This document shows, piece after piece, positions 40,694 through 55,596 of a stretch of 64,000 nt of DNA; the stretch's first letter is position 1; every line of letters begins with the position of its first letter. The notes beneath the pieces are model-generated. The model saw nothing but the letters and a program-made list of their open reading frames with translations, did not search any database and had not been told where the DNA came from. The position numbers and the translations under genes were made by a program. This DNA is from an uncultured bacterium (GTDB lineage: Bacteria; Verrucomicrobiota; Kiritimatiellia; RFP12; UBA1067): assembly GCA_900547945.1 (NCBI GenBank), contig URIT01000003.1:1406-65405 (forward strand), in the 5' to 3' direction.

Positions 40694-41439
40694 TGCCCCG
40701 GTCTCCGTGCGTAGCGAACGGTCTTCCACGGCTTGGGCAGCAGGACGACCGACCGCAGGGGAAGGTAGTCAAGCCCCATCGTCCGATGCCGCGCGGCATC
40801 GGCCGCCGCGATCTGGTCCCCATCCGGTTGCCAGCCCGTCGGCTCCCATGTGAAGGTGGTGGACGATGCCGCGCGTGCAACGGCAAGCAACCGCCCGATG
40901 ACGGGGACATGCAGGGGAAAATCAAACTCAACACAGACTTTCACCGCCGGGGCGTCCCATGTTTCCTCGCTCCAGACCTTCTCCCCTTCACGCCCAATGA
41001 TGCGTACCTGGTTCTCGATATGCGAAGAATTCGGGATGGGGGCCATTCCCCCTTCGCCCTTCGGCCACCATCCGGGAACCCCCAAAACCGATCCAGGTGA
41101 ACCGAACGTCCCCTCGTCCCAATCCGGACTTGAACTCACCCAGGCCAATGTGCGGCACGCCGCCTCCCAGCAGGGTCCCTTGGTACGGAAGAAATCGCCC
41201 TCGCCCCGTTCATTCATCTCGCGATACTCGCCCGGATGGTAGACAAGCGCGGCACGTGCGGCGTTGAAGGCCGCATAATGGGTCATGATCTGCGCATACC
41301 AGATCAACGCGAACTGAACGACCGCGAAAATCAACAAGGTCAGAAGCGGAAGGACGAGGACGCACTCCGTCAGAACCGTACCACGACGGGAGATCCGGGC
41401 CAAGCAGGCAACGGCAAGTCTGGGCAACGGTGTTCTCAT
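40690..41439 (-). CDS. TadE-like pseudopilin
   Basis: SRRGTVLTECVLVLPLLTLLIFAVVQFALIW is the TadE-like motif. The ATG at 41439 overlaps the peptidase stop as ATGA. Confidence 0.8.
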   Translation of the reverse strand: MRTPLPRLAVACLARISRRGTVLTECVLVLPLLTLLIFAVVQFALIWYAQIMTHYAAFNAARAALVYHPGEYREMNERGEGDFFRTKGPCWEAACRTLAWVSSSPDWDEGTFGSPGSVLGVPGWWPKGEGGMAPIPNSSHIENQVRIIGREGEKVWSEETWDAPAVKVCVEFDFPLHVPVIGRLLAVARAASSTTFTWEPTGWQPDGDQIAAADAARHRTMGLDYLPLRSVVLLPKPWKTVRYARRPGQ

Positions 41440-41978
41440 GCACGTGTGGCAAAGACTTCAAAGGCCAAAGTGATCCACGTCCCGGCGGCGATGGCGACGC
41501 CGAAGGGGACGCGGCACCGCTCGCTCGACTTCGGCGGCAGGGCAGCCCTCCCCGCCGCGCGGTCGTACCGCCAGTCGAAGACCGAACGCAGGACATGCTT
41601 CAGCCGCCGCGCATCGGCAAGGCCCACGAGAAGCAGGACGAGCATCAGCGCCAGCCCCGCAAGGGAGGTGAAGAGGATCACCTGGGCGGAACGCCCGAGC
41701 CCGACCGCGCAGCCGACCGCAAAGAGCATCTTGACGTCGCCGCCTCCCGCCGCGCGCAGGATGAACGGCAACAGGAGGAAGAGCCCGCAGACGATCCCGC
41801 CCAGCGCCCCGGCGTTGCCGAGAGCCCATCCTCCCGCCCCGTAGCGTGCCGCAAGCGCGACGACCGCCGCGCCGAGGGTCAGCACGTTGGGCAGACGCCG
41901 CCAGCGGCAATCCTGGTAGCAGAGGATTGCCAGCCACGGCGTCAACGCGACGAAGAGGATGAGGGCGGGAGACATCAT
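41436..41978 (-). CDS. cpaA: A24-family prepilin peptidase (CpaA/TadV type)
   Basis: 180-aa polytopic protein. The two catalytic Asp contexts are YQDCRWRRLPN and GGGDVKML. Confidence 0.88.
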   Translation of the reverse strand: MMSPALILFVALTPWLAILCYQDCRWRRLPNVLTLGAAVVALAARYGAGGWALGNAGALGGIVCGLFLLLPFILRAAGGGDVKMLFAVGCAVGLGRSAQVILFTSLAGLALMLVLLLVGLADARRLKHVLRSVFDWRYDRAAGRAALPPKSSERCRVPFGVAIAAGTWITLAFEVFATRA

Positions 41979-41997: not shown

Positions 41998-42315
41998 TCA
42001 TTGGCCCATGCCCGTCACGGTTCCTTGGTTGGCCTCTCCTGTACTTACGGCAGCATCACGATTTCCACGCCCCTCCTCGACCGAAGAAGGCGCCTCTCCG
42101 GGATTGAAGATCGCCGTCGACATCGTCTTGAAGGCCGAACCGATCGTGCCGCCGAACGCGACGACGAGGCCGACGACGGCCGCGACGATCAGAACGCCGA
42201 GGACGACATACTCCATCATCACGGCGCCGGCCGTGTCTCCGGCGAGGCGGCAGAGAAAGCGGCCGAACGCCGTCCGCTTCGCGCGCGCAAGGCGCATCTT
42301 CATTTTCGTATCCAT
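41998..42315 (-). CDS. flp: Flp-family type IVb pilin with an unusually long hydrophilic C-terminal tail
   Basis: The ATG at 42315 follows a strong SD AAGGAGAA. The sequence is MDTKMKMRLARAKRTAFGRFLCRLAGDTAG/AVMMEYVVLGVLIVAAVVGLVVAF (G / xxxxEY processing motif), then a polar tail of about 45 aa. Confidence 0.8.
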   Translation of the reverse strand: MDTKMKMRLARAKRTAFGRFLCRLAGDTAGAVMMEYVVLGVLIVAAVVGLVVAFGGTIGSAFKTMSTAIFNPGEAPSSVEEGRGNRDAAVSTGEANQGTVTGMGQ

Positions 42316-42354: not shown

Positions 42355-42367
42355 GGTGTGAAATGCG

Positions 42368-42580
42368 TCAGGGGATTGGCAGGGCGATGCCGGACTGCAC
42401 CCGCTGGAACATCGCCTGGATCCCCTTCCCGACCGTCCCGGTCCATTCGTTCTTCGACGGGTCGAAGATCTCCTGCTGCCAGAACAGGACGAGCGGCACG
42501 GCGATGGCCAGGTTGACGACGACATACTCCATCAGCACGGAGCCGCGCGTTCCGCAGAGGCGCCTGATTCCGTCTTTCAT
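42368..42580 (-). CDS. Flp-like minor pilin (70 aa)
   Basis: MKDGIRRLCGTRG/SVLMEYVVVNLAIAVPLVLFW. The ATG at 42580 overlaps the upstream stop as ATGA. Confidence 0.7.
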   Translation of the reverse strand: MKDGIRRLCGTRGSVLMEYVVVNLAIAVPLVLFWQQEIFDPSKNEWTGTVGKGIQAMFQRVQSGIALPIP

Positions 42581-45015
42581 CTGGCACGTTCCTTCCGCTT
42601 CGCTTCCTGGTCCCACCAGGCGTTGACGTTGTACAGTCCCGGGATGCCGATCTTCAGGATCTGGGGGCGTACCTCGGTCACGCAGTCGGGGTTGGCGTCG
42701 ATCTTCGCCTTGAGCGCCGCGAGGACGGCCTTGAGGCCCGCCAGGTCCCGTCTCAGTTCCGCGCCGGCCTCGGCGCCGAGCCGGCCGTTCGTGTCCAAGG
42801 CCCATGCCAGCCCCCGCGCGATGATGCACGAACGCCGGTCGTCCGATTCGCGGTTCCACCAGGCGTCGATCAGAAGCTCGCGCTTCTCCTGCAGGGAGAT
42901 TACCATGTCCGCAACCGCGCGCAGGCGGTTCCCGTCCGGCGCATCGACGGTGAGGAGGTAGGCGATGTCCGCGTTGTCCAGGAAGCGCAGGAACTGGTCC
43001 GCCTGGCGGTAGAACCTCAACGCCTCGACCAGAACGGGTTCCCCCCGCACCTCCCCGTACGCGGCATGGTAGTCCCGGTCGACGTCAAATGACTTGAGGT
43101 AGTCCGCAAACGCCTCGATCCCCAGCACCTCGTCGTATTTCCCCACGCATTCCGTGCGCGACGACTTGGGGCGGCGCCCGCGGAGCGAATCGCAGGCGAA
43201 GACCTTCTCGCATGTCCCGGCATCGAGCAGGGGCGCGACGGCGGCGGGGGTCTTCCCCGATTCCAGGTTCCACTTCCCGAGGCGCGCGAGCTGATCGCGC
43301 ATCGCCTCGCGCACGTCATCGTTGAGCCGGCGGTTCGCGGCCGCCATCAGACGCCGGAGTTCGCCCAGCTGCGGCATGAGCGAACACTGCTGGTCGGAGG
43401 GGAACGGCAGGTCCTCCCGCATCGCGTCGTAGCGGCAGGAGACGAGATACACGAGATTGCTGTTCAGGACGGCCTGCGCCTCGCCGAACCGCGCCAGGAC
43501 GGGGATAAACTCGTCGCACGCCTCCGAGACGATCCGGGGGGCGGCGAAATTGCGTCCCTCCTTCTTTGCGGCCTGCGCGCGCCGGACCTCGCGTTCCTGT
43601 GCCCGTCTGCCGATGTCCTCCAGTTTCCGCACGGTCTGCGGAAACGTTCCGGCTAGTTGGACGGCCGTCTTCAGGTCCGCCTCCTCGGGAACCCTGATCG
43701 CCGCGAGAAGCGCCGCGACTTCCCCCAGGTCGGCGATGAGCGCCTTCAGCTCGGTGCGCTGCTCCTCCATGTCCGCACGGAGCTTCCCGGTCGGCAGGCT
43801 TGCCGTCCACTGGGGATCCGCCAGCGTCCTCTCGACCGCCGCGAGGCGCGCGACCAGCGCCTCCCGTTCGTGGCCGCGTTCGCTTTCGCGGAAGTCGCCG
43901 CGAATCGCGCTTCGAGCCGTCAGGAACACGTCGACGAGGTCCTTCATCAGGCGGGCCTCCCGCTTCATGGTCTGCGCCGTCGTCGTGTTCCAGCCCCACT
44001 TCTCGACGTTGGCGTTCAGGAGCGAACCGAGCTTCGTGCTCGCGTCGATCCAGAAACGGCGGACGAAGTCCTCCTTTGCGGACCGCCAGACCTCCAGGGT
44101 GTTCCGCCAGATCAGCAGTTCGCCGCGCTTCCGCTCGATCTCGTCGCGGTAGTAGTCCGCGCCGCGCGCCGAAAGCGCCTGGTCCAGGGCCGCCGTGGCA
44201 CGCGCGAAGTTCTCGCGGGATTCCCATTCACACGCTTCGGCGAGCTTCGCCTTGGCGGACGGGAAGATCGTCTGCACGGCAAAATAGCCCGTTCCCACAA
44301 CGGCCGCCGTGATGAGCGCCACGCAGAGCTTCAGCAGCAGACGGCTGCGGGTGGGGTCGACGGTCCGGTCCCAGAACCGGAACTGGACATCCGCGACCGA
44401 GATAACGTCCCGATGTCGCAGCATCCGCTTCGCCTTCTTCAGCGGCACGCCGTTGACCGTCGTGCCGTTGCGGCTCCCCAGGTCCTGAATCCAGCACGAG
44501 TCGTCCTGTTCGTGCTGGATTTCGGCATGACGCTTCGAGACAAGGACACTCGAACAGAGAATCCCGTCCGCAACGGCCGAGCCGATGGGCAGGACGGCCG
44601 ATGTGATGTCGCAGAACGTCCCCGCCTTCTCGCCGTTCAACCATTCAAGCCGGTGGTACGGGAGGATCCGCGCCGCATTCCGCTCGTCGATCCGCTCGAC
44701 GGTCAGGCGGCATTGCCCGAGGCTGACGGACATCCCCGCCTCCAGCCGCCGTTCGGACACCTTCCGCCCCAGCACGAACAGGCCGTTGCGGCTGCCCAGG
44801 TCGCGGATCCACGCATGCCCGTGCCGTACCGTGATTTCCGCATGCGTCTTGCTCACCGACGTTTCCTCGGCGGGTACCTGCCAGGCGCACCCCGGCTGGC
44901 GACCGATCACAAGCGGAAGCTGGAGGTCTTCAAGGCGTCCCTCATGCACGACCTGGTCGTTGCGCTCAAGGCGGATCATCAGGGAATGGTCCTTCAGGCG
45001 TGTCGAACGGGTCAT
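42577..45015 (-). CDS. Membrane protein with two N-terminal FHA domains and a large C-terminal region of unknown family (812 aa)
   Basis: FHA1: VIGRQPGCAWQV...SVSKTHAEI...DLGSRNGLFV. FHA2: ...SKRHAEI...DLGSRNGTTVNG. TM segment: LLLKLCVALITAAVVGTGYFAV. Confidence 0.85.
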   Translation of the reverse strand: MTRSTRLKDHSLMIRLERNDQVVHEGRLEDLQLPLVIGRQPGCAWQVPAEETSVSKTHAEITVRHGHAWIRDLGSRNGLFVLGRKVSERRLEAGMSVSLGQCRLTVERIDERNAARILPYHRLEWLNGEKAGTFCDITSAVLPIGSAVADGILCSSVLVSKRHAEIQHEQDDSCWIQDLGSRNGTTVNGVPLKKAKRMLRHRDVISVADVQFRFWDRTVDPTRSRLLLKLCVALITAAVVGTGYFAVQTIFPSAKAKLAEACEWESRENFARATAALDQALSARGADYYRDEIERKRGELLIWRNTLEVWRSAKEDFVRRFWIDASTKLGSLLNANVEKWGWNTTTAQTMKREARLMKDLVDVFLTARSAIRGDFRESERGHEREALVARLAAVERTLADPQWTASLPTGKLRADMEEQRTELKALIADLGEVAALLAAIRVPEEADLKTAVQLAGTFPQTVRKLEDIGRRAQEREVRRAQAAKKEGRNFAAPRIVSEACDEFIPVLARFGEAQAVLNSNLVYLVSCRYDAMREDLPFPSDQQCSLMPQLGELRRLMAAANRRLNDDVREAMRDQLARLGKWNLESGKTPAAVAPLLDAGTCEKVFACDSLRGRRPKSSRTECVGKYDEVLGIEAFADYLKSFDVDRDYHAAYGEVRGEPVLVEALRFYRQADQFLRFLDNADIAYLLTVDAPDGNRLRAVADMVISLQEKRELLIDAWWNRESDDRRSCIIARGLAWALDTNGRLGAEAGAELRRDLAGLKAVLAALKAKIDANPDCVTEVRPQILKIGIPGLYNVNAWWDQEAKRKERAR

Positions 45016-45016
45016 A

Positions 45017-46501
45017 TCACCACGCCCCCTTCTTCAGCAGTCCGTTACGCCGGTCGTCGGGCGACGAGAAGACCTTCAGCGCGCTTTCAAGCACGCGCCG
45101 GCACCCGGCCTTGTCCCGGACGCGGTTCGCCTGGTACCAGGCGACCTTGAACTGGCGGTATTCGTGCTTCTGGTTCGCACGCAGTTCGCGGAGCATGGCC
45201 AACAGGCGTTCCGCCTCCTCGCCGTGTCCGCCGCAGGCAATGAGCGCGCTCTGCAAGAGGAATTCGGTTTCCTGCCAGAGAATCGGCGATTTGCGCGCCA
45301 AAAGGCCGGCCGCCTCGTCCTTCAGGACCTTCACGGATGCGGCACGCGCGTCCGGGCGCCCCTCCCAGTGTCCGTCAATCTCCTTGGCGTTGACGCGCAG
45401 AAGCTTCTCAAGCGCGACAAGGGTGGCGCCCCGCCACTGCTCGACCGCCGGAATCTCGCGCGTGAGCGTCAGCACGCAGTCCCCATGCACGGCAAACAGG
45501 GCATGCCCGAACCACTGCATGGATTCCGCGCCGCGCTTTTCCGTACGGAGGAACTGGACGTCGAAATACGGCAGGCCGCTGTTCCCCCCCAGAAACGCGG
45601 GGGGCGAGACGGACTGGAAATTCCAGCCGTCGCGTTCCTCGCGCGCGCGCCGCCACGCATCGAAAAGCTGATGCCGGTTGCGATGCAGGTTGCCGGCGCT
45701 CTGCATACAGCGGAAGACGATGCGGAAATCGACATCGCGCCTGCGCCCGATCCGCGTCTGGATCTCCGTCGTGCCGTCTTCGCCCGTCCGCACCCTGAAC
45801 TGGGGGCTGCCCGGACAATCCGCCCAGAAGGCATCCGTCCCAAACGGCGTCGGCAAATCGACGGACCGGATGTCGTACTTCCCGGACGCCGTAAGCGGCC
45901 ACGTGAGGGTCTTTTCCGGGCGCTGCCGCACCTGGACCGTGTAGTAGGCCGCCGCCACGCCCAGGAAGAGTCCCACGAACAGCATCACCTTCACAAGGAG
46001 GCGCCGTCCGCGCTTCCGCGCGCCGCCGGCAATCAGCTTGGCTATCTCCTCCGGGCTCACGAGCTGGGTCTGCAGGAACTGCGTCTCGTTCAAGTCGGGG
46101 GCCGGAGAGGGTTCGGTCGTTCCCTCCTCCGGGGCACCGGGGGCGGGGATGCTCGTCTCGCCCGCCGCATCGGGCAGAACGGTCTCGGACGAGGCGGCGG
46201 GGGCATCGACGAGAAGCTGGAACGCCGTCGTGCCGCCGATCTTCACCGGGACGCCGGGAGGAAGCGAGACGCGGTTGTTTTCAGGGATCTCCGTCAACCC
46301 GACGGCGGTGCGGTGCCGGCTCAGGTTCACGAGCGACACGCCCCCGTCGGCGACCTCGAGCGCGACATGCCGCCCCGAGACGTCGGGCGCCGGCACCACG
46401 ATGCCGCACTGGCGCGAACGGCCGACAACCGTCGTCCCGGACGGAAGCGGGAACGCCCGCCCAACCAATGCCCCTTCCGTGAACTGGATCCGCACGGCCA
46501 T
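45017..46501 (-). CDS. Membrane protein with an N-terminal (degenerate) FHA domain (494 aa)
   Basis: The ATG at 46501 overlaps the TadC stop by 1 nt. FHA-like segment: TTVVGRSRQCGIVVPAPDVSGRHVAL. TM segment: LLVKVMLFVGLFLGVAAAYY. Confidence 0.8.
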   Translation of the reverse strand: MAVRIQFTEGALVGRAFPLPSGTTVVGRSRQCGIVVPAPDVSGRHVALEVADGGVSLVNLSRHRTAVGLTEIPENNRVSLPPGVPVKIGGTTAFQLLVDAPAASSETVLPDAAGETSIPAPGAPEEGTTEPSPAPDLNETQFLQTQLVSPEEIAKLIAGGARKRGRRLLVKVMLFVGLFLGVAAAYYTVQVRQRPEKTLTWPLTASGKYDIRSVDLPTPFGTDAFWADCPGSPQFRVRTGEDGTTEIQTRIGRRRDVDFRIVFRCMQSAGNLHRNRHQLFDAWRRAREERDGWNFQSVSPPAFLGGNSGLPYFDVQFLRTEKRGAESMQWFGHALFAVHGDCVLTLTREIPAVEQWRGATLVALEKLLRVNAKEIDGHWEGRPDARAASVKVLKDEAAGLLARKSPILWQETEFLLQSALIACGGHGEEAERLLAMLRELRANQKHEYRQFKVAWYQANRVRDKAGCRRVLESALKVFSSPDDRRNGLLKKGAW

Positions 46502-47397
46502 CAAAGTCCCCCCCTCGACGCCTTGAACTTGAGCCAGACCGGCACGCCGATGATGGTAAACACCGCCGGTAGGATGAAGACCGCGATCGGGAAGATCATG
46601 ATCGACGGCGCGCGCGCCGCCTTGCGCTCGGCAATGTTGAAACGGGCCCGGCGCATGTCCTCGCCCTGGATGCGCAGCGTCTCGACGATGGACGCGCCGA
46701 TCTCCGTGCCGTGCGCAACCGCCCCGACGAACGCCGAGAACTCCTGCGTCTGCACATGCGTCGCCATCTCTCCCAGCGCCTCCATGCGACTCTTGCCGAA
46801 TTCCATCTGCCTGAGCAGCAGGCCGAATTCAACCGCCAGCGCCCCCTTGCCGCCGGCGCCGACATAGTAGCGGACCGCCGCCGAGAAATCGAGCCCCGCC
46901 CGCATGGCCGAGGCGATGAGGTCGATCGCGAACGGCAGCGCGCGGATGATCTCAGTCTGCCGTTCATCCGCCCGCTTTTGCACCAGCATCAGCGGATAGA
47001 CCCATCCGAGGAACGCGCCCACACAGCCAAGGCCGACCGCGAGCGGTGCCTGTGCGCTCGGCAGGAAGAAGCCAAAACAGAAGCACACCGCCCCGGCACA
47101 GGCGCCGAAGACCTGCCCGGCCAGCACGTCCGTCTCCGTGAGGTTCCAGCCCGATTTGAGGACCGTGTTCCGGTAGGACTTCGCCAGCGCGGGGAAATCC
47201 TCCGTAAACGCATCGCCGAGCGCCAACGAGATGGCCTCGATGAAGCGTGCGGAGACACGGTAGAAGAGGGGGAGGGACGACGCGCCCCCGCGTGTGGCCG
47301 CCTTTCGGGGCGTGCCCAGCCAAAGGGAGGCGGCAAGATACGGAATCAGGACCGAGAGAAAGACGAGCGGATAGGTCCAGAAGGAGATTTCGTCCAT
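46501..47397 (-). CDS. tadC: Type II secretion system F-family platform protein (TadC-like)
   Basis: T2SSF-type segment LPFAIDLIASAMRAGLDFSAAV...; 298 aa from the ATG at 47397, which lies 1 nt after the TadB stop (the track start at 47418 is TTG). Confidence 0.85.
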   Translation of the reverse strand: MDEISFWTYPLVFLSVLIPYLAASLWLGTPRKAATRGGASSLPLFYRVSARFIEAISLALGDAFTEDFPALAKSYRNTVLKSGWNLTETDVLAGQVFGACAGAVCFCFGFFLPSAQAPLAVGLGCVGAFLGWVYPLMLVQKRADERQTEIIRALPFAIDLIASAMRAGLDFSAAVRYYVGAGGKGALAVEFGLLLRQMEFGKSRMEALGEMATHVQTQEFSAFVGAVAHGTEIGASIVETLRIQGEDMRRARFNIAERKAARAPSIMIFPIAVFILPAVFTIIGVPVWLKFKASRGGL

Positions 47398-47398
47398 A

Positions 47399-48271
47399 TT
47401 AGACCTCGATCGTGACAATCTTGTTGATGACGAAGAAACCGATCAGAACCCACGCCGTGACGATTCCGATCGTACACCAGCCGACAAGCGTACTCGTGAG
47501 CGGAATCATGAGGTCCGGATCGATCAACCGCAGCAGGACATAGACGAGAACCGGGGCGAGCGACATCGCAATGGCCTCGAACCGCCCCTGTGCCGTCATG
47601 TTCTTCAGGCGTTCCTGGAATTCCACGCGGGCGCGGATCGTCTCCACCATGCGTTCCAGCACTTCCGCAAGGCTGCCGCCGGTCTGCAGGGTCAGCTTGA
47701 TCGACGTCACGAGAAGCCGAAGGTCCTCGCCGGGCATACGGCTGTAGAACCGCTCAAGCGCATCCGTCAGGTCAAACCCCAGCCGCGTTTCGCCCAGCAC
47801 CACCGCCAGTTCCTCCCGCATGGGCGCGTCCAGCCGCTGCGACGCCGCATCCAGCGCCTGGGGCAGGGCCTGACCGGAACGCAGTCCGTTTGACAGGCTC
47901 ATGGTCAACTGCAGAATCTGACCGTTGAACCGTTCCCGGCGCTTCTGGATCTTCATCCTGAAGCACAGCATGGGCAGATTCCAGCCGACGCCTCCAAGCA
48001 GGCATCCGGCCAACAGCAGCGGGACGGGCGAAACGTATCCCGCGCCAACCAGGACTACGACCGCCGCGAGCGCGGGAACTAGGCAGAACGTCAACTTCAA
48101 GGCGGCAAGGCGGACGGGCGTGACAAAGCGGCGCAGCGGCGAGACGGCCTCCGTCTCGCCTTCGGCGGATTCCGCCGCGCGCTCGCGCAGCGTGCGCCAC
48201 ACCGTCGACAGGGCGAGCGCGGTGGCGACCGCGACGCCGAAGAAGACCAGAAGTGCGAGCTGGAGTGTCAT
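47399..48271 (-). CDS. tadB: Type II secretion system F-family platform protein (TadB-like)
   Basis: 290 aa. ILQLTMSLSNGLRSGQALPQAL... is a T2SSF domain, and there are TM segments at both ends. Confidence 0.85.
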   Translation of the reverse strand: MTLQLALLVFFGVAVATALALSTVWRTLRERAAESAEGETEAVSPLRRFVTPVRLAALKLTFCLVPALAAVVVLVGAGYVSPVPLLLAGCLLGGVGWNLPMLCFRMKIQKRRERFNGQILQLTMSLSNGLRSGQALPQALDAASQRLDAPMREELAVVLGETRLGFDLTDALERFYSRMPGEDLRLLVTSIKLTLQTGGSLAEVLERMVETIRARVEFQERLKNMTAQGRFEAIAMSLAPVLVYVLLRLIDPDLMIPLTSTLVGWCTIGIVTAWVLIGFFVINKIVTIEV

Positions 48272-48284
48272 GCGGGCTTTCCTT

Positions 48285-49982
48285 TCATGTCTTCGGCACG
48301 AAGACCGACATGTCGATCTTCAGGTTTCCGCTCTTGCGCAGCTCGTCGACGAAATAGGGGATGTTGCCGGTTGCCGTGTGGTGGCCCACCACCCGGCCCC
48401 GTTCGTCGAACCCCTCCTGCTCGAAGGTGAAGATGTCCTGAAGCAGGATGACGTCCGCCTCACGTCCCGTCACTTCCGAAATCGCCACGATCTTGCGCGA
48501 ACCGTCGGGAAGGCGCGTCTGCTGGACGATGAGGTCGATGGCGGCGGCGATCTGTTCGCGGATGGCCGACGACGGCAGCTCGAATCCCGCCATCATCACC
48601 ATGTTCTCCAGGCGCGCGAGCGCATCGCGCGGATTGTTCGCGTGCGCCGTCGTCAGCGAGCCGTCGTGCCCCGTGTTCATGGCCTGGAGCATGTCGAGCG
48701 CCTCGGCGCCGCGGCATTCGCCCACGATGATGCGGTCGGGGCGCATGCGCAGGCAGTTGATGACGAGGTCGCGGATGGCGACACGCCCCTTCCCCTCGGT
48801 GTTCGACGGGCGCGCCTCCAGGCGCACGATGTTGCGGTGCGAAAGCTTCAGTTCGGCGGAATCCTCCACCGTCACGACCCGTTCCCTCGGCGGGATGAAC
48901 TGCGACAGCACGTTCAGGAGCGTCGTCTTGCCGGACCCCGTGCCGCCCGAGACAAGGATGTTCTTGCGCACGCGCACGGCCTCCTCCAGGAAAAGCGCCA
49001 TCTCCCGGGTCATGGAGCCAAAGCCGATCAGGTCGTCCGTCGTCAATTTCTTGTCGGCGAACTTGCGGATCGTCAGGGACGCCCCGTCAAGGGCCAGCGG
49101 CGGGATGACCGCGTTCACGCGGCTTCCGTCCGGCAGGCGGGCGTCGACCATCGGGCTCGCGTCGTCGACGTGGCGCCCCAGCGGCTCGACGATGCGCTGG
49201 ATGATCTGGATGAGATGCCGTTCGTTGAAGAAGCGGACGCCCGTCTCGCTCATCTTGCCGCCGCATTCGACGAAGATGCGGTCCGGCCCGTTCACCATGA
49301 TTTCCGACACCTGGGGCATGCGCAGAATCGGCGAGAGGGGGCCGTAGCCGACCAGCTCGTCCAGCAGGGCCTGGCGGAAGACCGGAACCGTCACCGAGCT
49401 TGGCAGTTCATGCCGGAACTGGCGCAGGGTCGCATCGAGACAGGTTTCGAGCTTGTCCTTCATCGTCTCGTCCGCAAACTCCTTCAGCGCGTCTTCCGAC
49501 AGGTTCATCTCGGCGAGGATGTGCTCGTGGAGCCTGCGCTTGATCTTCATGCACTCGTCCGTGTAGAGGACGACGGCGTTCTTGAACGCCTCGCCGATGT
49601 CGGGCTGCGGCTGGGGCTGGGGATCCGGGCCGGGCGACGACGGGGGCGGAACGCGGGATGGAGGCGCGGCGCGTTGGGCGACGGGGGTGGGAGCCGCCAC
49701 GAGGCCGATCTGGTAGGGGCCGATCTTCACCCGGTCCCCTTCGGCAAGGCACAGCGCGGATTCGAGACGCTGCCCGTTCGACCAGGTGCCGCCCCGGCTC
49801 CCCGCGTCGGACAGGACGAAGACGCCGCTGCGGCCCGTCAACCGCGCATGGACGCGCGAGACCTCGTTGGCCGGCAGCCGCACGTCGCAGCCCTCCTGCC
49901 GTCCAAGCGTCCACGCGAAGTCCGACGCCGGCAGTTCAACCCGCGCGAACGGCGTTCCGTTCTGTGTCACCTCCAGGACCAT
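48285..49982 (-). CDS. cpaF: CpaF/TadA secretion ATPase with a fused N-terminal FHA domain
   Basis: Start MVLEVTQNG at 49982 with GAGG upstream. FHA: WTLGRQEGCDVRLPANEVSRVHARL...SRGGTWSNG. ATPase: VSEIMVNGPDRIFVE, Walker A GGTGSGKTT, VVTVEDSAEL and GHDGSLTTAHANN. Confidence 0.92.
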   Translation of the reverse strand: MVLEVTQNGTPFARVELPASDFAWTLGRQEGCDVRLPANEVSRVHARLTGRSGVFVLSDAGSRGGTWSNGQRLESALCLAEGDRVKIGPYQIGLVAAPTPVAQRAAPPSRVPPPSSPGPDPQPQPQPDIGEAFKNAVVLYTDECMKIKRRLHEHILAEMNLSEDALKEFADETMKDKLETCLDATLRQFRHELPSSVTVPVFRQALLDELVGYGPLSPILRMPQVSEIMVNGPDRIFVECGGKMSETGVRFFNERHLIQIIQRIVEPLGRHVDDASPMVDARLPDGSRVNAVIPPLALDGASLTIRKFADKKLTTDDLIGFGSMTREMALFLEEAVRVRKNILVSGGTGSGKTTLLNVLSQFIPPRERVVTVEDSAELKLSHRNIVRLEARPSNTEGKGRVAIRDLVINCLRMRPDRIIVGECRGAEALDMLQAMNTGHDGSLTTAHANNPRDALARLENMVMMAGFELPSSAIREQIAAAIDLIVQQTRLPDGSRKIVAISEVTGREADVILLQDIFTFEQEGFDERGRVVGHHTATGNIPYFVDELRKSGNLKIDMSVFVPKT

Positions 49983-49992: not shown

Positions 49993-51588
49993 TCACGGCG
50001 TGAACCAGTTGAGCCAGTACAGCGCGCCGCTCCATTTTTTGCGGGATTCAAGGCGGTCGCGGTTGGGAATCTCGACCTCGGTCGGGAGATCCTTCGTGTC
50101 CTCGTAGGGGAGGCGCGCATTCTGCGCCTCCGGCTCGTCGCCGCGCACGATTTTCACGCTCACGAGCATCATGAGCTTGACGTTCTCAAGGGAATCGCTT
50201 TCCTGGGAGACGAACCAGTTCATGATCGGGATGTGGCGCAGGACGGGGAACCCGGCCGGCGGCATCGTCGACTCGACCATGTTCTTGTAGCCGGCCAGGA
50301 CGACGGTCTTCCCGATCGGGCAGACGACGGAGGGGTTGTACTCGTTCTCCTCGATGTTGTACCCCTCTTCGTACCCGCCCTCCATCGGAATCGGCTTCTT
50401 CTGCATAATCTGAAGATCCACATCGACATGTTCCGCATCCAGGAGGACGGCACGTTTTTTCTCGATGAAGAAGCCGTACTCAATGGGCTCGAAATTCTGA
50501 GTCGGCGTACCCTCTGCCGTCGCACTCTGCATCTTCACCTTCATCGTGCCCCCGATCTTGAGTTTCCGGGTTTCCGGGTCGTTGTTCTTGAAATAGACGT
50601 GCCCGCCCACCGTATGGCGGACCAGTTCATTCTTCTTGAGAAACCCCAGCGTGCTGTTCAGGTCGGCGCCAACCGAAAAGGCGTCACGATGGGTCTTCCC
50701 CTTGTACAGGTCGATGACCCCCTGGAAAATGCCGTTGAACTTCAGGGCGTCGTCGGACGAACCGTACTTGGAGATATCCGTCTCCTTGTAGCCCACGAGC
50801 ACGACGTCCATGCGCATCTGGGCGGAATCGACCGACACGTTCATGCGGCACGTCGTCTTCCAGGATTCGTCGGACGGAACGTTCTTCCCGTCCTCCACGC
50901 GCAGCCAGGCGGCCTGGGCCCCGACGATGCGCTCAAGCTTCTCCTTTTCCTCCGGCGAGTAGACGACGCCGTTGATGAGCAGCATGTTCCCTATGTTCCC
51001 TTCGTACTTGACGTACAGCTTGCCGGCCTTGGCCTCCTCCAGTTTGTCCGTGATCTGGAACTGCGCCTCCTTCAGCTGGGTACGGAAATCCTTCAGGGTG
51101 TCCGCCTGGACGCGGAAGTGCGTCTGGTCCTTGACGAGGCTGCGAAAGTCAGGGTGCGCAAGCGTCTTCTTCAGGAGCCGCCATCCCTCAGGGTCGTTGA
51201 TCTCGCCCTTGACGATCAGCGATTCACCGACCTTCGTGACGTCCACGCCCCCCACGTCCTCCAGTTCCGTCTGGAGGTTCCGCATGGTCTCCAGAAGGTT
51301 CCCGCCGACCGTCACCTCGTATGCCTCCCTAAGCTCCCCCGGGCCAAAAAGCTCCAGGGCCGCCGTCCCTTCTGCGAGCCCCGTCACGCGCGCAGGGCCT
51401 CCCCCCGGCGGAATACTCACTTCAAGGATGCCCTTCTGCGGCTCGACGAGGAACTTCGTCGCCTTGAACCCCGGATCGACGGGCAATGACTTTCCCTTGC
51501 CGACCGTGAGACGCTGCCCGGCCGCCTCCACGTCGGCAACTACGCAGAAACCAAGGCAGAACGCCAACGCCAACTTGAAGATCTTCAT
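49993..51588 (-). CDS. cpaC: Secretin (CpaC/RcpA-like outer-membrane channel)
   Basis: Signal peptide MKIFKLALAFCLGFCVVADVEA. The N-terminal pilus-formation region reads LTVGKGKSLPVDP. The C-terminal secretin-like motif reads GFPVLRHIPIMNWFV. 531 aa. Confidence 0.8.
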   Translation of the reverse strand: MKIFKLALAFCLGFCVVADVEAAGQRLTVGKGKSLPVDPGFKATKFLVEPQKGILEVSIPPGGGPARVTGLAEGTAALELFGPGELREAYEVTVGGNLLETMRNLQTELEDVGGVDVTKVGESLIVKGEINDPEGWRLLKKTLAHPDFRSLVKDQTHFRVQADTLKDFRTQLKEAQFQITDKLEEAKAGKLYVKYEGNIGNMLLINGVVYSPEEKEKLERIVGAQAAWLRVEDGKNVPSDESWKTTCRMNVSVDSAQMRMDVVLVGYKETDISKYGSSDDALKFNGIFQGVIDLYKGKTHRDAFSVGADLNSTLGFLKKNELVRHTVGGHVYFKNNDPETRKLKIGGTMKVKMQSATAEGTPTQNFEPIEYGFFIEKKRAVLLDAEHVDVDLQIMQKKPIPMEGGYEEGYNIEENEYNPSVVCPIGKTVVLAGYKNMVESTMPPAGFPVLRHIPIMNWFVSQESDSLENVKLMMLVSVKIVRGDEPEAQNARLPYEDTKDLPTEVEIPNRDRLESRKKWSGALYWLNWFTP

Positions 51589-51601: not shown

Positions 51602-52366
51602 TTATTTCGCCTTGTTGGAGGGTTGATCGGGAACCTGGACCTTTGGGCATCCCTGAAGCATGTCCACGAACGCCTGGTTGTCGAACTGGCCGTTGTCCCT
51701 GCGGCTGGTCGCCTTGCCGTCGTGCGGACGGCGCAGCACGACAAACAGACGGGCCTGCTTCTGCGCGGCGATCGCGACAAGCGCCTGCTGCGGCGGCAGC
51801 GACAGAAGAACCGATCCGTCCGACGACATGCTCATGATCCGCACCTGCGGAAAGAGGACCGTCGTCACCGTCCGCTTGACCGTTTCAGGCTTCGCGCGGG
51901 CATCGGCGGAGGTCGATTTCACCTCTTCCTGGATCTCAAACATGCCGACAACCGCGATTTCGTCGCCCGGCTTGAGCTGCTTGGCGAACTGCCGCGCATT
52001 CTCGAAGGAAACCGGAACCGCCCACTCGCCCTCGCCGACGGATTCCCCGACGCTGCTCTGGCGGCCGAAATCGTTCCAGAGGATGTAGTCCCCTGCGGCG
52101 ATGTCCCGGACAAGCGTCTGCCCCAGGATGGAGGCGTCCTGATCGCCCAGGATATGCTGCTTGGGAACATAGGCGGACGGGACAACGGCCCTTCGGAAAT
52201 TCTCGGACGACATCACGCTTCCGCGTTTGAGGTTGCCGTTTGCAACCAGCACGGAAACCTCCTTGCCGTATTGCCGTGTGCCGTTCTTCGAAAGCGCCCG
52301 GCTGACGGCGAAGACGGCCGCCAAACCAAGAACGACCGCGACAATCAAGGGTATCATGTTTTTCAT
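51602..52366 (-). CDS. cpaB: CpaB/RcpC-like Flp pilus assembly protein (SAF domain)
   Basis: 254 aa. The N-terminal anchor is MKNMIPLIVAVVLGLAAVFAV, followed by the SAF-like segment VLVANGNLKRGSVMSSENF. It sits immediately upstream of the secretin gene. Confidence 0.8.
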   Translation of the reverse strand: MKNMIPLIVAVVLGLAAVFAVSRALSKNGTRQYGKEVSVLVANGNLKRGSVMSSENFRRAVVPSAYVPKQHILGDQDASILGQTLVRDIAAGDYILWNDFGRQSSVGESVGEGEWAVPVSFENARQFAKQLKPGDEIAVVGMFEIQEEVKSTSADARAKPETVKRTVTTVLFPQVRIMSMSSDGSVLLSLPPQQALVAIAAQKQARLFVVLRRPHDGKATSRRDNGQFDNQAFVDMLQGCPKVQVPDQPSNKAK

Positions 52367-52397: not shown

Positions 52398-53735
52398 TCA
52401 GTCCCATCCCGCGACTTCCCGGATCAGGGCCGCACAGCGCCGCTGCGTCGCCGCATCGCCCGGGTTGCCGTCCAGTTCCGGCGCCAAAGCGGCAAACAGG
52501 CGGCGGAGCCGTTTCGTGTTGGGGTCGTGCAGGGATTCCTTCGACTCGGAACAGTCCCGCGCATAGTCGACGCCGGACTTGACCGCGAGAAGGACCTCCC
52601 GCGCCAGCGTTTCCGCAGTCCCCGAGGATACGGAGGTCGCCAATCCCCGCGCCGTCGCCTCTAAGCCGTCCGGGACGCCATGCCGGTCCAACCGACGGAC
52701 AACGCGCATGAACCGCCGGACCGTCTCGCCGTCGCACGACGCGGCGAGCTCCCCCGCCGCCGAGAGCACCGCCTTCTTCTCCACCCGTGCCGTGGAATGG
52801 ACAAACCAGGACGCCGTAGCCAGAAGCAGAACCGTCATCCCCGACAGCAGAACAACCGCCCCGGATCGCCGACGCGGGGATCGGACTTCCATACGGCGCG
52901 TCCGGTCTCCATGTTCTTCCCCCGTCTCACACACCTCCAGCGACGTCGGCAACGGATCGTCCTGAAGGGCCCGAAGTGGGGGCGGCAGGTCTCCGACGTC
53001 GATCAGCACGACCGTGATGTTGTCAAGGCCCCCGCCACGCTTCGCCGCCTCGACCATCTCATCGACGGCGTTCTCGGTCGAGTGGACTGACGACAGGATG
53101 TCGGTCAGGGCGGTATCCGGAACCATGCGGGAGAGGCCGTCGCTGCACAGGAAAATGCGATCCCCCGTCTGTACGTCGAACGCATTCCGCTCAAGGTCCA
53201 CGGTCTCCTGCGCGCCAACCGCCCTGACGATGACACCCCGCAGCTTCTTGTCGACTTCGCGTTCGTCCGCAACCCCCATCAACTCCGCAACCGAGTGGTC
53301 GCGCGTCACACGCAGGAGCGTGCCGTTCCGATAACGGTACAGACGGCTGTCTCCGGCATGAAGGGCGATGGCCGTATCGGGGGCCGTCGCGTCGAAGACA
53401 ACCCCGACAAACGTCGACCCGCACGCCTTGAGCCCATGTTCCGCAGTATGGCGGACGATGGATGCCGAAGCGCGGTTGAGCGCGGCGGAGATTCCCATCG
53501 ACAGGACGGCTGCGGAATGCCCGCAACCTGGAGCGGCGTGCAGTTGTCCGCAGAATTCCGACAGGGCGGCAACCGTCTCGGCGGAGGCAAACTCGCCGTC
53601 ATCGCCTCCGCCCATGCCATCGGCCACACAAAACACCCCCGCTTCGGGGAAGCCCCCGAAGGCATCCTCGTTGTTTCCCCTCACAAGGCCAAGATCGCTC
53701 CGGGCCGCATGATGGAGATGTTCAAAGGGATGCAT
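52398..53735 (-). CDS. Membrane-anchored PP2C-family Ser/Thr phosphatase
   Basis: RGNNEDAF, VADGMGGG, LCSDGL and GGLDNITVVLIDV. The TM segment is GAVVLLSGMTVLLLATASWFV, followed by a helical C-terminal domain of about 130 aa. Confidence 0.9.
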   Translation of the reverse strand: MHPFEHLHHAARSDLGLVRGNNEDAFGGFPEAGVFCVADGMGGGDDGEFASAETVAALSEFCGQLHAAPGCGHSAAVLSMGISAALNRASASIVRHTAEHGLKACGSTFVGVVFDATAPDTAIALHAGDSRLYRYRNGTLLRVTRDHSVAELMGVADEREVDKKLRGVIVRAVGAQETVDLERNAFDVQTGDRIFLCSDGLSRMVPDTALTDILSSVHSTENAVDEMVEAAKRGGGLDNITVVLIDVGDLPPPLRALQDDPLPTSLEVCETGEEHGDRTRRMEVRSPRRRSGAVVLLSGMTVLLLATASWFVHSTARVEKKAVLSAAGELAASCDGETVRRFMRVVRRLDRHGVPDGLEATARGLATSVSSGTAETLAREVLLAVKSGVDYARDCSESKESLHDPNTKRLRRLFAALAPELDGNPGDAATQRRCAALIREVAGWD

Positions 53736-55245: not shown

Positions 55246-55596
55246 CTACCGGTTGTTCGTCTTGATAGGCGTTCCCGTCACGCGCGTCGTCATGATCTGG
55301 ACCCAGAAGAGGTTGAGCATCTGGTAGTCGACGGCCATGCTGATCAGCCCGTCGGCACCCGCCGCCTTGTCAAGCGCGCTCCGAAGGGCACGACGCTGCG
55401 GAGATCCCGGCAATCCGACGCTGTAGCCGAGAACGAACAGCTGCGAGTCGGAACCCTCGACCTCGTCGCCGACAACGGTGTACTTGCCCTGTTCAACGGG
55501 AAGCGACGCATCCGAGAAGTTCTGCGGCACCGTCGAGCATCCGGTCACGACCGCCGCGACGACGGCCAGGGCGGCAAAGCCCATGAGTTTCTTCAT
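55246..55596 (-). CDS. Small lipoprotein (116 aa)
   Basis: Lipobox AVVTGC within MKKLMGFAALAVVAAVVTGCS. Confidence 0.75.
   Translation of the reverse strand: MKKLMGFAALAVVAAVVTGCSTVPQNFSDASLPVEQGKYTVVGDEVEGSDSQLFVLGYSVGLPGSPQRRALRSALDKAAGADGLISMAVDYQMLNLFWVQIMTTRVTGTPIKTNNR

What the first reader, a model, noticed from the sequence alone, without database searches (positions are those of the whole stretch)
42577..49982. Four FHA domains in three proteins wrapped around the Tad inner-membrane platform, including an FHA-CpaF fusion
Seen in the sequence:
- The motor ATPase (48285..49982) carries an N-terminal FHA domain (GR...SRVHA...SNG).
- Directly after tadB/tadC come a single-FHA membrane protein (45017..46501) and a double-FHA membrane protein (42577..45015; two copies of DLGSRNG).
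- Each of these two has one TM segment and a large non-cytoplasmic region of no family I recognise.

Established: FHA domains bind phosphothreonine. In the P. aeruginosa H1-T6SS the PpkA/PppA/Fha1 pathway gates assembly post-translationally.

Inference: assembly or firing of this pilus-like machine is gated by Thr phosphorylation at the platform, an arrangement not described for classical Tad pili.
Basis: partly seen in the sequence, partly recalled or inferred. Interest (0 to 1): 0.75.

Follow-up and report, generated by a model that had tools for sequence, protein, structure and literature searches.

The report
FHA-rich Tad pilus machine with kinase
This is a complete Tad-type pilus gene cluster from a Kiritimatiellia-like (PVC) bacterium whose motor and two membrane partners carry FHA domains, and which also encodes its own membrane kinase and phosphatase. 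The layout is real and common in this group, but it resembles the published Myxococcus "Kil" system, so it is a new variant and not a new kind of machine.

Summary
Window 42577-49982 (minus strand) encodes FHA-CpaF, TadB, TadC, a one-FHA membrane protein of 494 aa and a two-FHA membrane protein of 812 aa. All four FHA domains score above Pfam cut-offs.

These genes sit inside a complete Tad-like operon.

The same gene order recurs in Kiritimatiellia, Lentisphaeria and Victivallales MAGs. The two-FHA partner family has 378 representatives at E<=1e-30.

The claim that the arrangement is undescribed does not hold in general. FHA-CpaF fusions and FHA proteins next to TadC are published for the Myxococcus Kil Tad-like system (Seef 2021), along with the same T6SS-style phospho-gating idea. 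"Class III" CpaF is also published (2025).

Only one of the four FHA domains keeps every canonical phosphothreonine-binding residue.

New here:
- the PVC lineage;
- the kinase and phosphatase inside the cluster;
- the second ATPase;
- an invariant Thr-x4-Thr motif in the one-FHA protein, a candidate phosphosite.

Verdict: a real feature and a new variant of a known kind. Phospho-gated motor recruitment is plausible but unproven. Interest is moderate.

The parts
57432..58529 (-). PEGA-domain lipoprotein or secreted protein, the first clearly conserved gene of the block
   Evidence: Pfam PEGA. A PEGA gene sits at the same position in L004.
56818..57435 (-). LpoB-like lipoprotein
   Evidence: Pfam LpoB 55 bits. 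Conserved upstream in L003 and L004. Lipobox in the N-terminus.
55641..56882 (-). Lipoprotein of unknown family (u413)
   Evidence: No Pfam hit. Lipobox. 78% identical to the L001 protein, 69% to L086.
55246..55596 (-). Small lipoprotein (u116)
   Evidence: Lipobox. Conserved in L001 and L086.
53761..55230 (-). Secreted protein of unknown family (u489)
   Evidence: Signal-peptide-like N-terminus. 64% identical to the L001 protein.
52398..53735 (-). PP2C Ser/Thr phosphatase: cytoplasmic catalytic domain, one TM (294-312), about 130 aa beyond it
   Evidence: Pfam PP2C_2 and NCBIfam Stp1-type 162 bits. TM. ADGMGG / SDG / DN motifs present. PP2C genes occur in the related clusters.
51602..52366 (-). 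CpaB/RcpC
   Evidence: TIGR03177 72.1 bits against a cut-off of 71. Pfam SAF and RcpC.
49993..51588 (-). Secretin (RcpA/CpaC-like, divergent)
   Evidence: Pfam Secretin 37 bits, residues 339-482. No N-terminal secretin-associated domain was detected.
48285..49982 (-). FHA-CpaF motor ATPase: FHA 24-88, Pro-rich linker, CpaF core
   Evidence: Aligns to the solved CpaF 9e24 from residue 96, E 8e-126.
47399..48271 (-). TadB platform protein
   Evidence: Pfam T2SSF 56 bits.
46501..47418 (-). TadC platform protein
   Evidence: Pfam T2SSF 57.5 bits.
45017..46501 (-). FHA-TM protein: FHA 1-100, disordered linker with invariant T140/T145, TM 168-186, periplasmic alpha/beta domain plus helical bundle
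42577..45015 (-). 2xFHA-TM protein: FHA1 canonical, FHA2 lacks the Arg, TM 226-244, all-alpha periplasmic domain of about 560 aa
42365..42580 (-). Small Flp-like prepilin 1 (71 aa, GSVLMEY); its start overlaps the stop of the 2xFHA gene
   Evidence: Homologous to the 67-aa gene in L001.
41998..42315 (-). Flp prepilin 2 (105 aa, G/AVMMEY)
   Evidence: Flp_Fap (weak) on the gene at this position in L003 and L004.
41436..41978 (-). Prepilin peptidase (TadV/CpaA type)
   Evidence: Pfam Peptidase_A24 55 bits.
40690..41439 (-). TadE-like pseudopilin
   Evidence: Pfam TadE.
38171..40729 (-). TadG-like large pseudopilin or tip protein
   Evidence: Pfam Tad PF13400 N-terminus.
37092..38159 (-). Conserved unknown protein (u355)
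   Evidence: Syntenic in L001 and L085.
35302..37119 (-). Conserved unknown protein (u605)
   Evidence: Syntenic in L001 and L085.
34105..34560 (-). Small membrane protein (u151); last gene of the strain-variable cassette
31774..32835 (-). Second CpaF-like ATPase (353 aa, no FHA and no three-helix bundle)
   Evidence: T2SSE 182 bits. TadA-type best hit, not PilT. Walker A/B intact. 91% identical to the L001 protein and 59-76% to the copies in L008, L009, L020, L088 and L094.
29924..31714 (-). Receptor-type Hanks Ser/Thr kinase: kinase 1-320, TM 376-394, about 200 aa outside
   Evidence: Pkinase 146 bits. HRD, DFG and SPE motifs. TM. Linked to the Tad cluster in L008, L009, L020, L088 and L094.

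Best explanation
What it is (shown). The region is the core of a complete Tad-like (type IVc) filament machine of a type shared by Kiritimatiellia, Lentisphaeria and Victivallales. The FHA-CpaF motor, TadB/TadC and two FHA-headed single-pass membrane proteins form one conserved unit. A membrane Hanks kinase, a membrane PP2C phosphatase and a second FHA-less CpaF paralogue belong to the same cluster. No TadZ/CpaE gene is present in the window.

How it most likely works (inferred):
1. The kinase responds to an envelope or surface cue through its variable outer domain.
2. It phosphorylates Thr residues on platform-associated proteins. The best candidate site is the invariant E-T-x4-T-[R/Q]..EE motif (T140/T145) in the otherwise unconserved cytoplasmic linker of the one-FHA protein.
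3. FHA domains dock on the phosphothreonine. The fully canonical FHA1 of the two-FHA protein is the best candidate; the CpaF FHA, which keeps its phosphate-binding Arg/Ser, may also take part.
4. Docking recruits or activates the motor at TadB/TadC. This would take over the role that TadZ plays in classical Tad systems.
5. The PP2C resets the switch.

The FHA-less second ATPase may drive the opposite step (retraction). That last point is speculative.
For: - Domain calls.
- One co-directional block with overlapping or abutting genes.
- The order CpaB-secretin-FHA-CpaF-TadB-TadC-FHA-TM-2xFHA-TM is fully seen in 12 of the 14 related loci examined (L001, L003, L004, L085-L090, L092-L094). L002 and L091 are truncated or were not reported.
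- PP2C, ATPase2 and/or the kinase lie in the same clusters in L001/L002, L008, L009, L020, L085, L088, L089, L093 and L094.
- The kinase and phosphatase have intact catalytic motifs and one TM each.
- FHA1 of the two-FHA protein has G-R, S-x-x-H and S-x-N-G invariant in 30 of 30 sequences.
- T140 and T145 are invariant in 17 + 13 orthologues that are only 22-42% identical overall and sit in a region modelled as disordered. T140+3 is mostly hydrophobic; FHA domains commonly favour a hydrophobic +3 residue (own knowledge, not tested here).
- No ParA/TadZ-like gene was found among the window genes scanned.
- Precedents: the PpkA/PppA/Fha T6SS logic and the same proposal for Kil (PMC8460266); FHA-ATPase plus kinase plus PPM phosphatase in T7SSc/d (PMC11217815).
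Against: - There is no experimental or phosphoproteomic evidence.
- Three of the four FHA domains carry a family-wide deviation at a canonical position. The CpaF FHA has the N107-equivalent as Ala or Gly in 21 of 24 sequences and never as Asn. The one-FHA protein has no N-G. FHA2 has no Arg in 0 of 30 sequences.
- PP2C-kinase pairs are common in bacterial genomes. Most of the 80 kinase-seeded loci had no Tad genes.
- In the window the kinase lies about 11 kb from the FHA genes. The PP2C sits at a different place than in relatives.
- The kinase substrate is a guess.
Confidence: 0.55

Rival explanations
1. The FHA domains are phospho-independent structural modules, like the FHA-like cytoplasmic domain of the T3SS inner-ring protein SctD (YscD/PrgH). 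On this reading the two FHA-TM proteins are simply an inner-membrane alignment or ring subcomplex that links the motor to CpaB and the secretin. The nearby kinase and phosphatase would regulate something else, or only fine-tune.
For: - Pfam Yop-YscD_cpl hits on all three proteins.
- A weak NCBIfam SctD hit over FHA+TM of the 494-aa protein: 28 bits against a cut-off of 86.
- Three of the four FHA domains lack one canonical residue across their families.
- The topology (FHA, one TM, large periplasmic domain) equals that of SctD.
- YscD and PscD structures appear among the fold matches.
Against: - FHA1 of the 812-aa protein is fully canonical in 30 of 30 sequences. The other three keep the phosphate-contacting Ser and His; the CpaF FHA and the one-FHA protein also keep the Arg.
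- The best structural matches are true phosphothreonine-binding FHAs: GarA, OdhI and DgcB.
- The periplasmic domains are not ring-building motifs. One is PsbP-like alpha/beta plus helices; the other is all-alpha.
- The kinase and PP2C are linked to the cluster in several lineages.
Confidence: 0.25
2. The machine is not an adhesive pilus. It would be a Kil-type contact-dependent device (killing or effector delivery), and the FHA/kinase module would be its contact sensor, as proposed for Myxococcus.
For: - It shares hallmarks with Kil: an FHA-fused ATPase, FHA proteins next to TadC, no TadZ, and lipoprotein genes in the cluster.
- The same TadC / FHA+TM / 2xFHA+TM layout occurs in a Bdellovibrionales MAG, L134.
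- The minor-pilin/tip cassette is swapped between strains that are 98.7% identical, as expected for a surface part under diversifying selection.
- In a rough NJ tree the ATPase falls in the 96% clade that also holds KilF.
Against: - The PVC ATPases form their own 100% clade and are not sister to KilF; they are 42% identical to M. xanthus KilF over the aligned block.
- The partner proteins align with the Bdellovibrionales ones only over the FHA domains.
- A second ATPase is present, whereas Kil has one.
- The related MAGs come from rumen and gut samples by their record titles, and these lineages are not known predators (own knowledge).
- No toxin or effector gene was recognised.
Confidence: 0.2
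3. The kinase and phosphatase are there by coincidence, or they control expression or other cell functions. The FHA domains would then read phosphorylation from unrelated housekeeping kinases.
For: - PP2C-kinase pairs are frequent and usually unlinked to Tad genes.
- The kinase's outer domain and its position vary between lineages. It is upstream in L088/L094 and downstream in the window, L008 and L020.
Against: - Linkage persists despite rearrangement across Kiritimatiellia-, Lentisphaerae- and Victivallales-type clusters whose partner proteins are only 25-31% identical.
- Wherever both genes fall inside the sequence held, the second ATPase lies close to the PP2C: directly after it in L001, L002 and L020, and about 0.9-1.2 kb away in L008, L009, L088 and L094.
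Confidence: 0.1

Closest known systems
Myxococcus xanthus Kil Tad-like system (Seef et al. 2021, eLife, PMC8460266), with its Bdellovibrionales and Bradymonadales relatives
   Same: - The ATPase is fused to an N-terminal FHA (KilF).
- Two FHA proteins lie directly beside the TadC/TadB homologues: MXAN_4648 and MXAN_4649 next to KilH/KilG.
- FHA proteins are over-represented, lipoprotein genes are present, and no TadZ is listed.
- The same T6SS-style phospho-signalling hypothesis is already published.
- The L134 Bdellovibrionales MAG shows TadC followed by FHA+TM and 2xFHA+TM proteins.
   Different: - One contiguous cluster here, against two clusters in Myxococcus.
- PVC lineage, whereas the paper reports Kil as restricted to delta-proteobacterial predators.
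- The ATPases form a separate clade.
- The partner proteins share no detectable similarity outside the FHA domains.
- A second CpaF paralogue, a Hanks kinase and a PP2C are encoded in the cluster. The Kil paper's main text mentions no kinase or phosphatase.
- No evidence for predation.
Class III CpaF (N-terminal FHA, disordered region, three-helix bundle, ATPase), Nat Commun 2025, PMC12019362
   Same: Same domain order. The core aligns to solved C. crescentus CpaF from residue 96.
   Different: - The paper finds class III mostly in Betaproteobacteria; here it is the norm in a PVC clade.
- FHA-bearing partner proteins are not mentioned in the passages read.
- The FHA here lacks the N107-equivalent Asn.
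T6SS threonine-phosphorylation pathway (PpkA / PppA / Fha1; TssL-Fha in Agrobacterium)
   Same: A TM Hanks kinase, a PP2C phosphatase and FHA protein(s) are encoded with a membrane nanomachine. The proposed logic is that phosphothreonine on a membrane component recruits an FHA protein and switches assembly on.
   Different: - There are no T6SS genes.
- The FHA domains are fused to the motor and to membrane proteins instead of sitting on a soluble Fha1.
- This is an analogy only, with no homology beyond the generic domains.
T3SS inner-ring protein SctD (YscD/PrgH)
   Same: An N-terminal FHA-type cytoplasmic domain, a single TM and a large periplasmic domain. Yop-YscD_cpl hits.
   Different: - The periplasmic parts are not ring-building motifs.
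- The NCBIfam score is far below cut-off.
- Most phosphate-binding residues are kept here.
T7SSc/d variants (EssC-type ATPase with FHA domains plus membrane Ser/Thr kinase and PPM phosphatase), PMC11217815
   Same: An FHA-bearing motor ATPase together with a TM kinase and a PPM phosphatase in one secretion-system locus. Threonine-phosphorylation control has been proposed there too.
   Different: An unrelated machine, with an FtsK-type ATPase and a monoderm envelope.

Membership tests
Tad / type IVc (Flp) pilus system | CpaF/TadA-type secretion ATPase | tested here: met
   T2SSE 221.9 bits. Best NCBIfam hit is the TadA family. E 8e-126 to solved CpaF.
Tad / type IVc (Flp) pilus system | Two GspF-like platform proteins, TadB and TadC | tested here: met
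   Two adjacent T2SSF proteins of 290 and 305 aa.
Tad / type IVc (Flp) pilus system | Short Flp prepilin with a G/XXXXEY motif and a dedicated A24 prepilin peptidase | tested here: met
   GSVLMEY and G/AVMMEY small genes. Peptidase_A24 55 bits.
Tad / type IVc (Flp) pilus system | TadE/TadF/TadG-type pseudopilins | tested here: met
   PF07811 TadE and PF13400 Tad.
Tad / type IVc (Flp) pilus system | CpaB/RcpC and secretin RcpA/CpaC | tested here: met
   TIGR03177 at 72.1 bits against a cut-off of 71. Secretin 37 bits.
Tad / type IVc (Flp) pilus system | TadZ/CpaE (ParA-like localisation ATPase) | tested here: not met
   No ParA/MinD-type domain in any of the 39 window proteins scanned. A copy elsewhere in the genome cannot be excluded.
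Kil system (Seef et al. 2021) | ATPase fused to an N-terminal FHA domain | tested here: met
   KilF description.
Kil system (Seef et al. 2021) | FHA-domain proteins encoded directly beside the TadC/TadB homologues | tested here: met
   The window order TadB-TadC-FHA-2xFHA matches KilG-KilH-MXAN_4649-MXAN_4648.
Kil system (Seef et al. 2021) | Core proteins branch with the Myxococcales/Bdellovibrionales/Bradymonadales Kil clade | tested here: not met
   NJ tree on 240 columns of the paper's own supermatrix. The PVC ATPases form a separate 100% clade at the base of a 96% clade that also holds beta/gamma types, and are not sister to KilF. Only the ATPase was tested, with a rough method.
Kil system (Seef et al. 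2021) | A single ATPase | tested here: not met
   A second CpaF paralogue at 31774-32835, also found in related clusters L001, L002, L008, L009, L020, L088 and L094.
Kil system (Seef et al. 2021) | Partner FHA proteins homologous beyond the FHA domain | tested here: inconclusive
   hhalign against a Bdellovibrionales locus aligns only the FHA parts.
Kil system (Seef et al. 2021) | Contact-dependent prey killing | not testable with these tools
   A phenotype; it needs culture work.
Class III CpaF (PMC12019362) | N-terminal FHA, then a disordered linker, then the CpaF core | tested here: met
   FHA at residues 24-88 of the 565-aa protein, a Pro-rich stretch at about 95-130, and the CpaF core from residue 96 or 203 onward.
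Canonical phosphothreonine-binding FHA domain | Conserved G-R, S-x-x-H and S-x-N-G residues (Rad53 R70, S85, H88, N107 equivalents) | tested here: inconclusive
   All are present only in FHA1 of the 812-aa protein (30 of 30). The CpaF FHA never has Asn at the N107-equivalent position (Ala or Gly in 21 of 24). The 494-aa protein has no N-G. FHA2 never has the Arg (0 of 30).
T6SS threonine-phosphorylation pathway (PpkA/PppA/Fha1) | TM Hanks kinase, PP2C phosphatase and FHA protein encoded with the machine | tested here: met
T6SS threonine-phosphorylation pathway (PpkA/PppA/Fha1) | T6SS core genes (TssB/C, Hcp, VgrG, TssM and others) | tested here: not met
   None appear among the Pfam results for the window. 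The relationship is analogy only.
T3SS SctD (YscD/PrgH) | Periplasmic ring-building motifs, and a family score above cut-off | tested here: not met
   TIGR02500 at 28 bits against a cut-off of 86. The modelled periplasmic domain is PsbP-like alpha/beta plus a helical bundle.

The most novel reading that the evidence does not exclude
The PVC clusters would be a distinct, widespread class of type IVc machine with three defining properties.
- A dedicated receptor kinase / PP2C pair writes and erases a phosphothreonine mark on a conserved E-T-x4-T motif of an FHA-headed membrane adaptor.
- FHA docking replaces TadZ as the way the motor is recruited.
- Two CpaF paralogues split the work: the FHA-tagged one is phospho-recruited and the FHA-less one is constitutive, for example extension versus retraction.

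That would make it the first Tad-family system with a hard-wired post-translational on/off switch and a dedicated second motor, found in gut and rumen glycan degraders and not in predators.
Probability: 0.3. Interest if true: 0.65.

Novelty: new variant of a known kind. Interest (0 to 1): 0.45.

Why it matters
- **The open question.** How FHA domains control Tad/Kil machines is unresolved. A 2025 review still calls the Kil FHA proteins "promising candidates" (PMC12428579).
- **What this cluster offers.** This PVC version places the missing parts side by side: a receptor kinase, a phosphatase, one fully canonical FHA and a conserved candidate phosphosite. The hypothesis therefore becomes directly testable with peptides, purified domains and structure prediction.
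- **Wider implication.** FHA-rich Tad-like systems are not confined to delta-proteobacterial predators. That weakens the link drawn between this architecture and predation.
- **Annotation gap.** The two-FHA partner family has 378 representatives at E<=1e-30 but is labelled only "FHA domain-containing protein". Annotation pipelines and type IV filament classifiers currently miss it.

Tried and rejected
1. **Partner proteins versus a Bdellovibrionales Kil-like locus (L134).** hhalign aligned only the FHA regions. The L134 FHA-TM protein has a different downstream architecture and no E-T-x4-T motif. Orthology of the partners is not claimed.
2. **Fold searches of both AlphaFold models against the PDB.**
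   - The 812-aa model matched FHA domains only.
   - The 494-aa periplasmic domain gave weak PsbP/Mog1/DUF1795-like matches (TM 0.55-0.63).
   - Neither showed a ring-building motif or a known type IV pilus alignment-protein fold.
3. **SctD membership.** Rejected; the score is below cut-off and the periplasmic fold is wrong.
4. **PilT identity for the second ATPase.** Rejected; it is TadA/CpaF-like.
5. **Kinase-seeded metagenome scan.** Most of the 80 loci are unrelated kinases. Only L005-L009 and L020 (with L011 partial) carry Tad genes, so the linkage evidence rests on those plus the genome loci.
6. **tRNA or integration signals for the low-GC3 block.** None found.
7. **Taxon names for distant two-FHA family members.** Mostly unnamed metagenome proteins.
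8. **First bootstrap script.** It timed out and was redone with a lighter NJ method.
9. **M. xanthus Kil partner sequences.** They could not be fetched, so MXAN_4648/4649 were compared only through the published domain table.
Full report
**1.

All likely genes in the window lie on the minus strand. Pfam gives the following, against an FHA cut-off of 20.7 bits:
- 48285-49982 (565 aa from the internal ATG): N-terminal FHA at 56.3 bits fused to a T2SSE ATPase at 221.9 bits.
- 47399-48271 and 46501-47418: two T2SSF proteins, TadB and TadC.
- 45017-46501 (494 aa): one FHA at 38.0 bits.
- 42577-45015 (812 aa): two FHA stretches, 99.3 bits in total.

Each partner protein has one true hydrophobic segment, at 168-186 and 226-244. 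Neither C-terminal part matches any Pfam or NCBIfam family. AlphaFold2 models built on family alignments are confident, with pLDDT 82.8 and 87.1. Their N-terminal domains superpose on solved FHA domains such as GarA, OdhI and DgcB.

**2.

Upstream lie PEGA, LpoB-like and other lipoprotein genes, then a PP2C phosphatase (52398-53735), CpaB/RcpC and a secretin. Downstream lie:
- two Flp-type prepilins (42365-42580 with GSVLMEY; 41998-42315 with G/AVMMEY);
- an A24 prepilin peptidase, TadE, a TadG-like protein and several unknown proteins;
- Lgt;
- a second CpaF-like ATPase of 353 aa (31774-32835);
- a Hanks Ser/Thr kinase (29924-31714).

The kinase has HRD, DFG and SPE motifs, a TM at 376-394 and about 200 residues outside the membrane. 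The PP2C has its metal-binding motifs and a TM at 294-312. The second ATPase has intact Walker motifs and is TadA/CpaF-like, not PilT-like. No TadZ/CpaE-type protein was found among 39 window proteins scanned.

**3. The arrangement is conserved and common in PVC bacteria.**

- Named close relatives are Kiritimatiellia or Kiritimatiellae MAGs.
- Of the 120 best homologues of the motor (at least 64% identity), 117 carry FHA. Named ones include Kiritimatiellae, Lentisphaeria and Victivallales, and NCBI calls them plain TadA.
- The order CpaB-secretin-FHA-CpaF-TadB-TadC-FHA-TM-2xFHA-TM-Flp-peptidase-TadE-TadG recurs in L001-L004. It also recurs in 9 of the 10 full-length genome loci, which come from goat, yak, rumen and human-gut MAGs. 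The tenth, L091, is a short contig that did not appear in the tblastn output.
- A profile of the two-FHA protein finds 378 representatives (50% clusters) at E<=1e-30. Most of the best 150 are 745-900 aa long.

**4. The kinase, phosphatase and second ATPase belong to the system.**

- In L008, L009 and L020 the cluster ends with PP2C, ATPase2 and the kinase.
- In L088 and L094 the kinase lies about 2 kb upstream of CpaB, and PP2C with ATPase2 follows the two-FHA gene directly.
- L001/L002 (cut within ATPase2) and L085, L089 and L093 (PP2C near the locus end) show PP2C just before the sequence runs out.
- These clusters are divergent; their partner proteins are only 25-31% identical to the window's.
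- The second ATPase is better conserved than the FHA-CpaF between the window and L001 (91% against 77%). It is about 45% identical to the FHA-CpaF in every lineage tested, so the duplication is old.
- Caveat: PP2C-kinase pairs are common in bacteria, and most kinase-seeded loci had no Tad genes.

**5. FHA competence is uneven.**

| FHA domain | G-R | S-x-x-H | Asn of S-x-N-G |
|---|---|---|---|
| FHA1 of the 812-aa protein | 30/30 | 30/30 | 30/30 |
| FHA2 of the 812-aa protein | Arg never present (0/30; Ser 20, Cys 6) | 30/30 | 30/30 |
| CpaF FHA | 24/24 | 24/24 (as S-R-x-H) | never Asn (Ala 15, Gly 6, other 3) |
| FHA of the 494-aa protein | 17/17 | 17/17 | no N-G |

So one domain is a textbook phosphothreonine reader. 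The other three may bind differently or not at all.

**6. A candidate phosphosite.**

The cytoplasmic linker of the 494-aa protein is modelled as disordered (pLDDT below 50 for 101-148) and is not conserved. The exception lies just before the TM helix. There, T140 and T145 are invariant in 17 family members. They are also invariant in 13 orthologues drawn from Kiritimatiellia, Lentisphaerae and Victivallales loci, within the motif E-T-x4-T-[R/Q]-x-A-x-x-E-E-[L/I/M]. Position T140+3 is mostly Met, Leu or Phe. FHA domains commonly favour a hydrophobic +3 residue (own knowledge, not tested here). That these threonines are the substrate is an inference, not a demonstration.

**7. Periplasmic parts.**

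The 494-aa protein has an alpha/beta domain at 205-365 with weak PsbP/Mog1/DUF1795-like matches (TM 0.55-0.63), followed by a helical bundle. The 812-aa protein has an all-alpha domain of about 560 residues with no PDB match in the top list. Neither resembles the ring-building motifs of T3SS SctD. The NCBIfam SctD hit is far below cut-off, at 28 bits against 86.

**8. Comparison with the literature.**

- Seef et al. 2021 (PMC8460266) describe the M. xanthus Kil Tad-like system. KilF is an FHA-ATPase fusion. MXAN_4649 (FHA) and MXAN_4648 (FHA+TPR) sit beside KilH/KilG. [quoted passage not shown]
- The same paper reports Kil-like systems as restricted to delta-proteobacterial predators.
- A 2025 Nat Commun paper on CpaF (PMC12019362) defines class III CpaF with an N-terminal FHA, mostly in Betaproteobacteria.
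- A 2025 review still treats the Kil FHA proteins as candidates.
- A 2026 Bdellovibrio preprint notes FHA/TPR genes near tad genes.
- Full-text searches found no paper linking Tad, FHA and Kiritimatiellota, and none describing this system in Lentisphaerae.

**9. Relationship to Kil.**

A Bdellovibrionales MAG (L134) has TadC followed by FHA+TM (535 aa), FHA+TPR (319 aa) and 2xFHA+TM+TPR (659 aa) proteins. That is the same architecture. However, profile comparison aligns only the FHA parts, and the 535-aa protein differs downstream.

I added the window and PVC ATPases to 240 columns of the paper's own supermatrix and built an NJ tree with 200 bootstraps.
- The PVC FHA-CpaFs form their own 100% clade.
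- That clade lies inside a 96% clade with Myxococcales KilF, Bdellovibrionales, Bradymonadales and beta/gamma-proteobacterial types.
- Alphaproteobacterial and Desulfovibrio-type CpaFs are excluded from it.
- The PVC clade is not sister to KilF, and identity to M. xanthus KilF over the block is 42%.
- The tree is a rough, single-protein result.

**10. Verdict.**

The feature is real and its domain calls are right. The phospho-gating inference gains support from the in-cluster kinase and phosphatase and from the invariant Thr motif. The central novelty claim fails, because FHA-CpaF fusions with FHA partners at the platform, and the same hypothesis, are already published for Kil.

What remains new:
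- the PVC lineage;
- the in-cluster receptor kinase and PP2C;
- the second CpaF paralogue;
- the unrelated periplasmic domains of the partner proteins;
- the candidate phosphosite.

I rate it a new variant of a known kind, with moderate interest (0.45).

Noticed in passing
window 34128-41470, compared with L005:361-6584: A near-identical strain (L005) is 98.7% identical in DNA on both sides but has no DNA match across this 7.3-kb stretch. The stretch holds TadE, the TadG-like gene, u355, u605 and u151. L005 carries a 6.2-kb replacement whose proteins are only 33-45% identical. The minor-pilin/tip module looks like a swappable cassette.
   Followed up: partly
window 31774-32835: A second CpaF paralogue of 353 aa lacks the FHA, the linker and the three-helix bundle. 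It is more conserved between the window and L001 than the FHA-CpaF (91% against 77%). It lies next to or near the PP2C and/or the kinase in related clusters. It may be a dedicated second motor, which classical Tad systems are not thought to need.
   Followed up: partly
window 32811-33653 and 52398-53735: Lgt (prolipoprotein diacylglyceryl transferase) sits directly before the second ATPase, the position a PP2C gene holds in L001, L002 and L020. The window's own PP2C is longer (445 aa, with a TM) and lies between u489 and CpaB instead.
   Followed up: partly
L006:5486-8411, inserted at about window 31770: Another close strain has 2.9 kb inserted between the second ATPase and the kinase. The insert encodes an unknown protein of about 300 aa, a 479-aa TPR protein and a 208-aa LpoB-like lipoprotein. 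It is not an IS element.
   Followed up: partly
window 25969-58529 versus its flanks: Third-position GC is 0.72-0.91 (mostly 0.72-0.87) for genes of this block but 0.94-0.97 for the flanking sugar-metabolism and large-protein genes. No tRNA gene occurs in the window. This may mark a horizontally acquired or differently expressed island.
   Followed up: partly
window 45017-46501, residues 138-155: The motif E-T-x4-T-[R/Q]-x-A-x-x-E-E-[L/I/M] has two invariant threonines. It lies in an otherwise unconserved, disordered cytoplasmic linker just before the TM helix and is conserved across Kiritimatiellia, Lentisphaerae and Victivallales orthologues.
   Followed up: yes
window 56818-58937: A lipoprotein set lies upstream of the pilus genes: DUF1425-like (58545-58937), PEGA and LpoB-like. 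It also lies upstream in L004, and partly in L003, where a faint CsgG hit appears. Its role is unknown.
   Followed up: no
window 21427-29887: Directly after the kinase come a radical-SAM/SPASM enzyme (28781-29887), a 943-aa He_PIG/TPR/InlB-repeat protein (25969-28800) and a 1512-aa protein with no Pfam match (21427-25965). tblastn found no rSAM homologue in the more distant clusters that extend past the kinase (L008, L020), so it is probably not core.
   Followed up: partly
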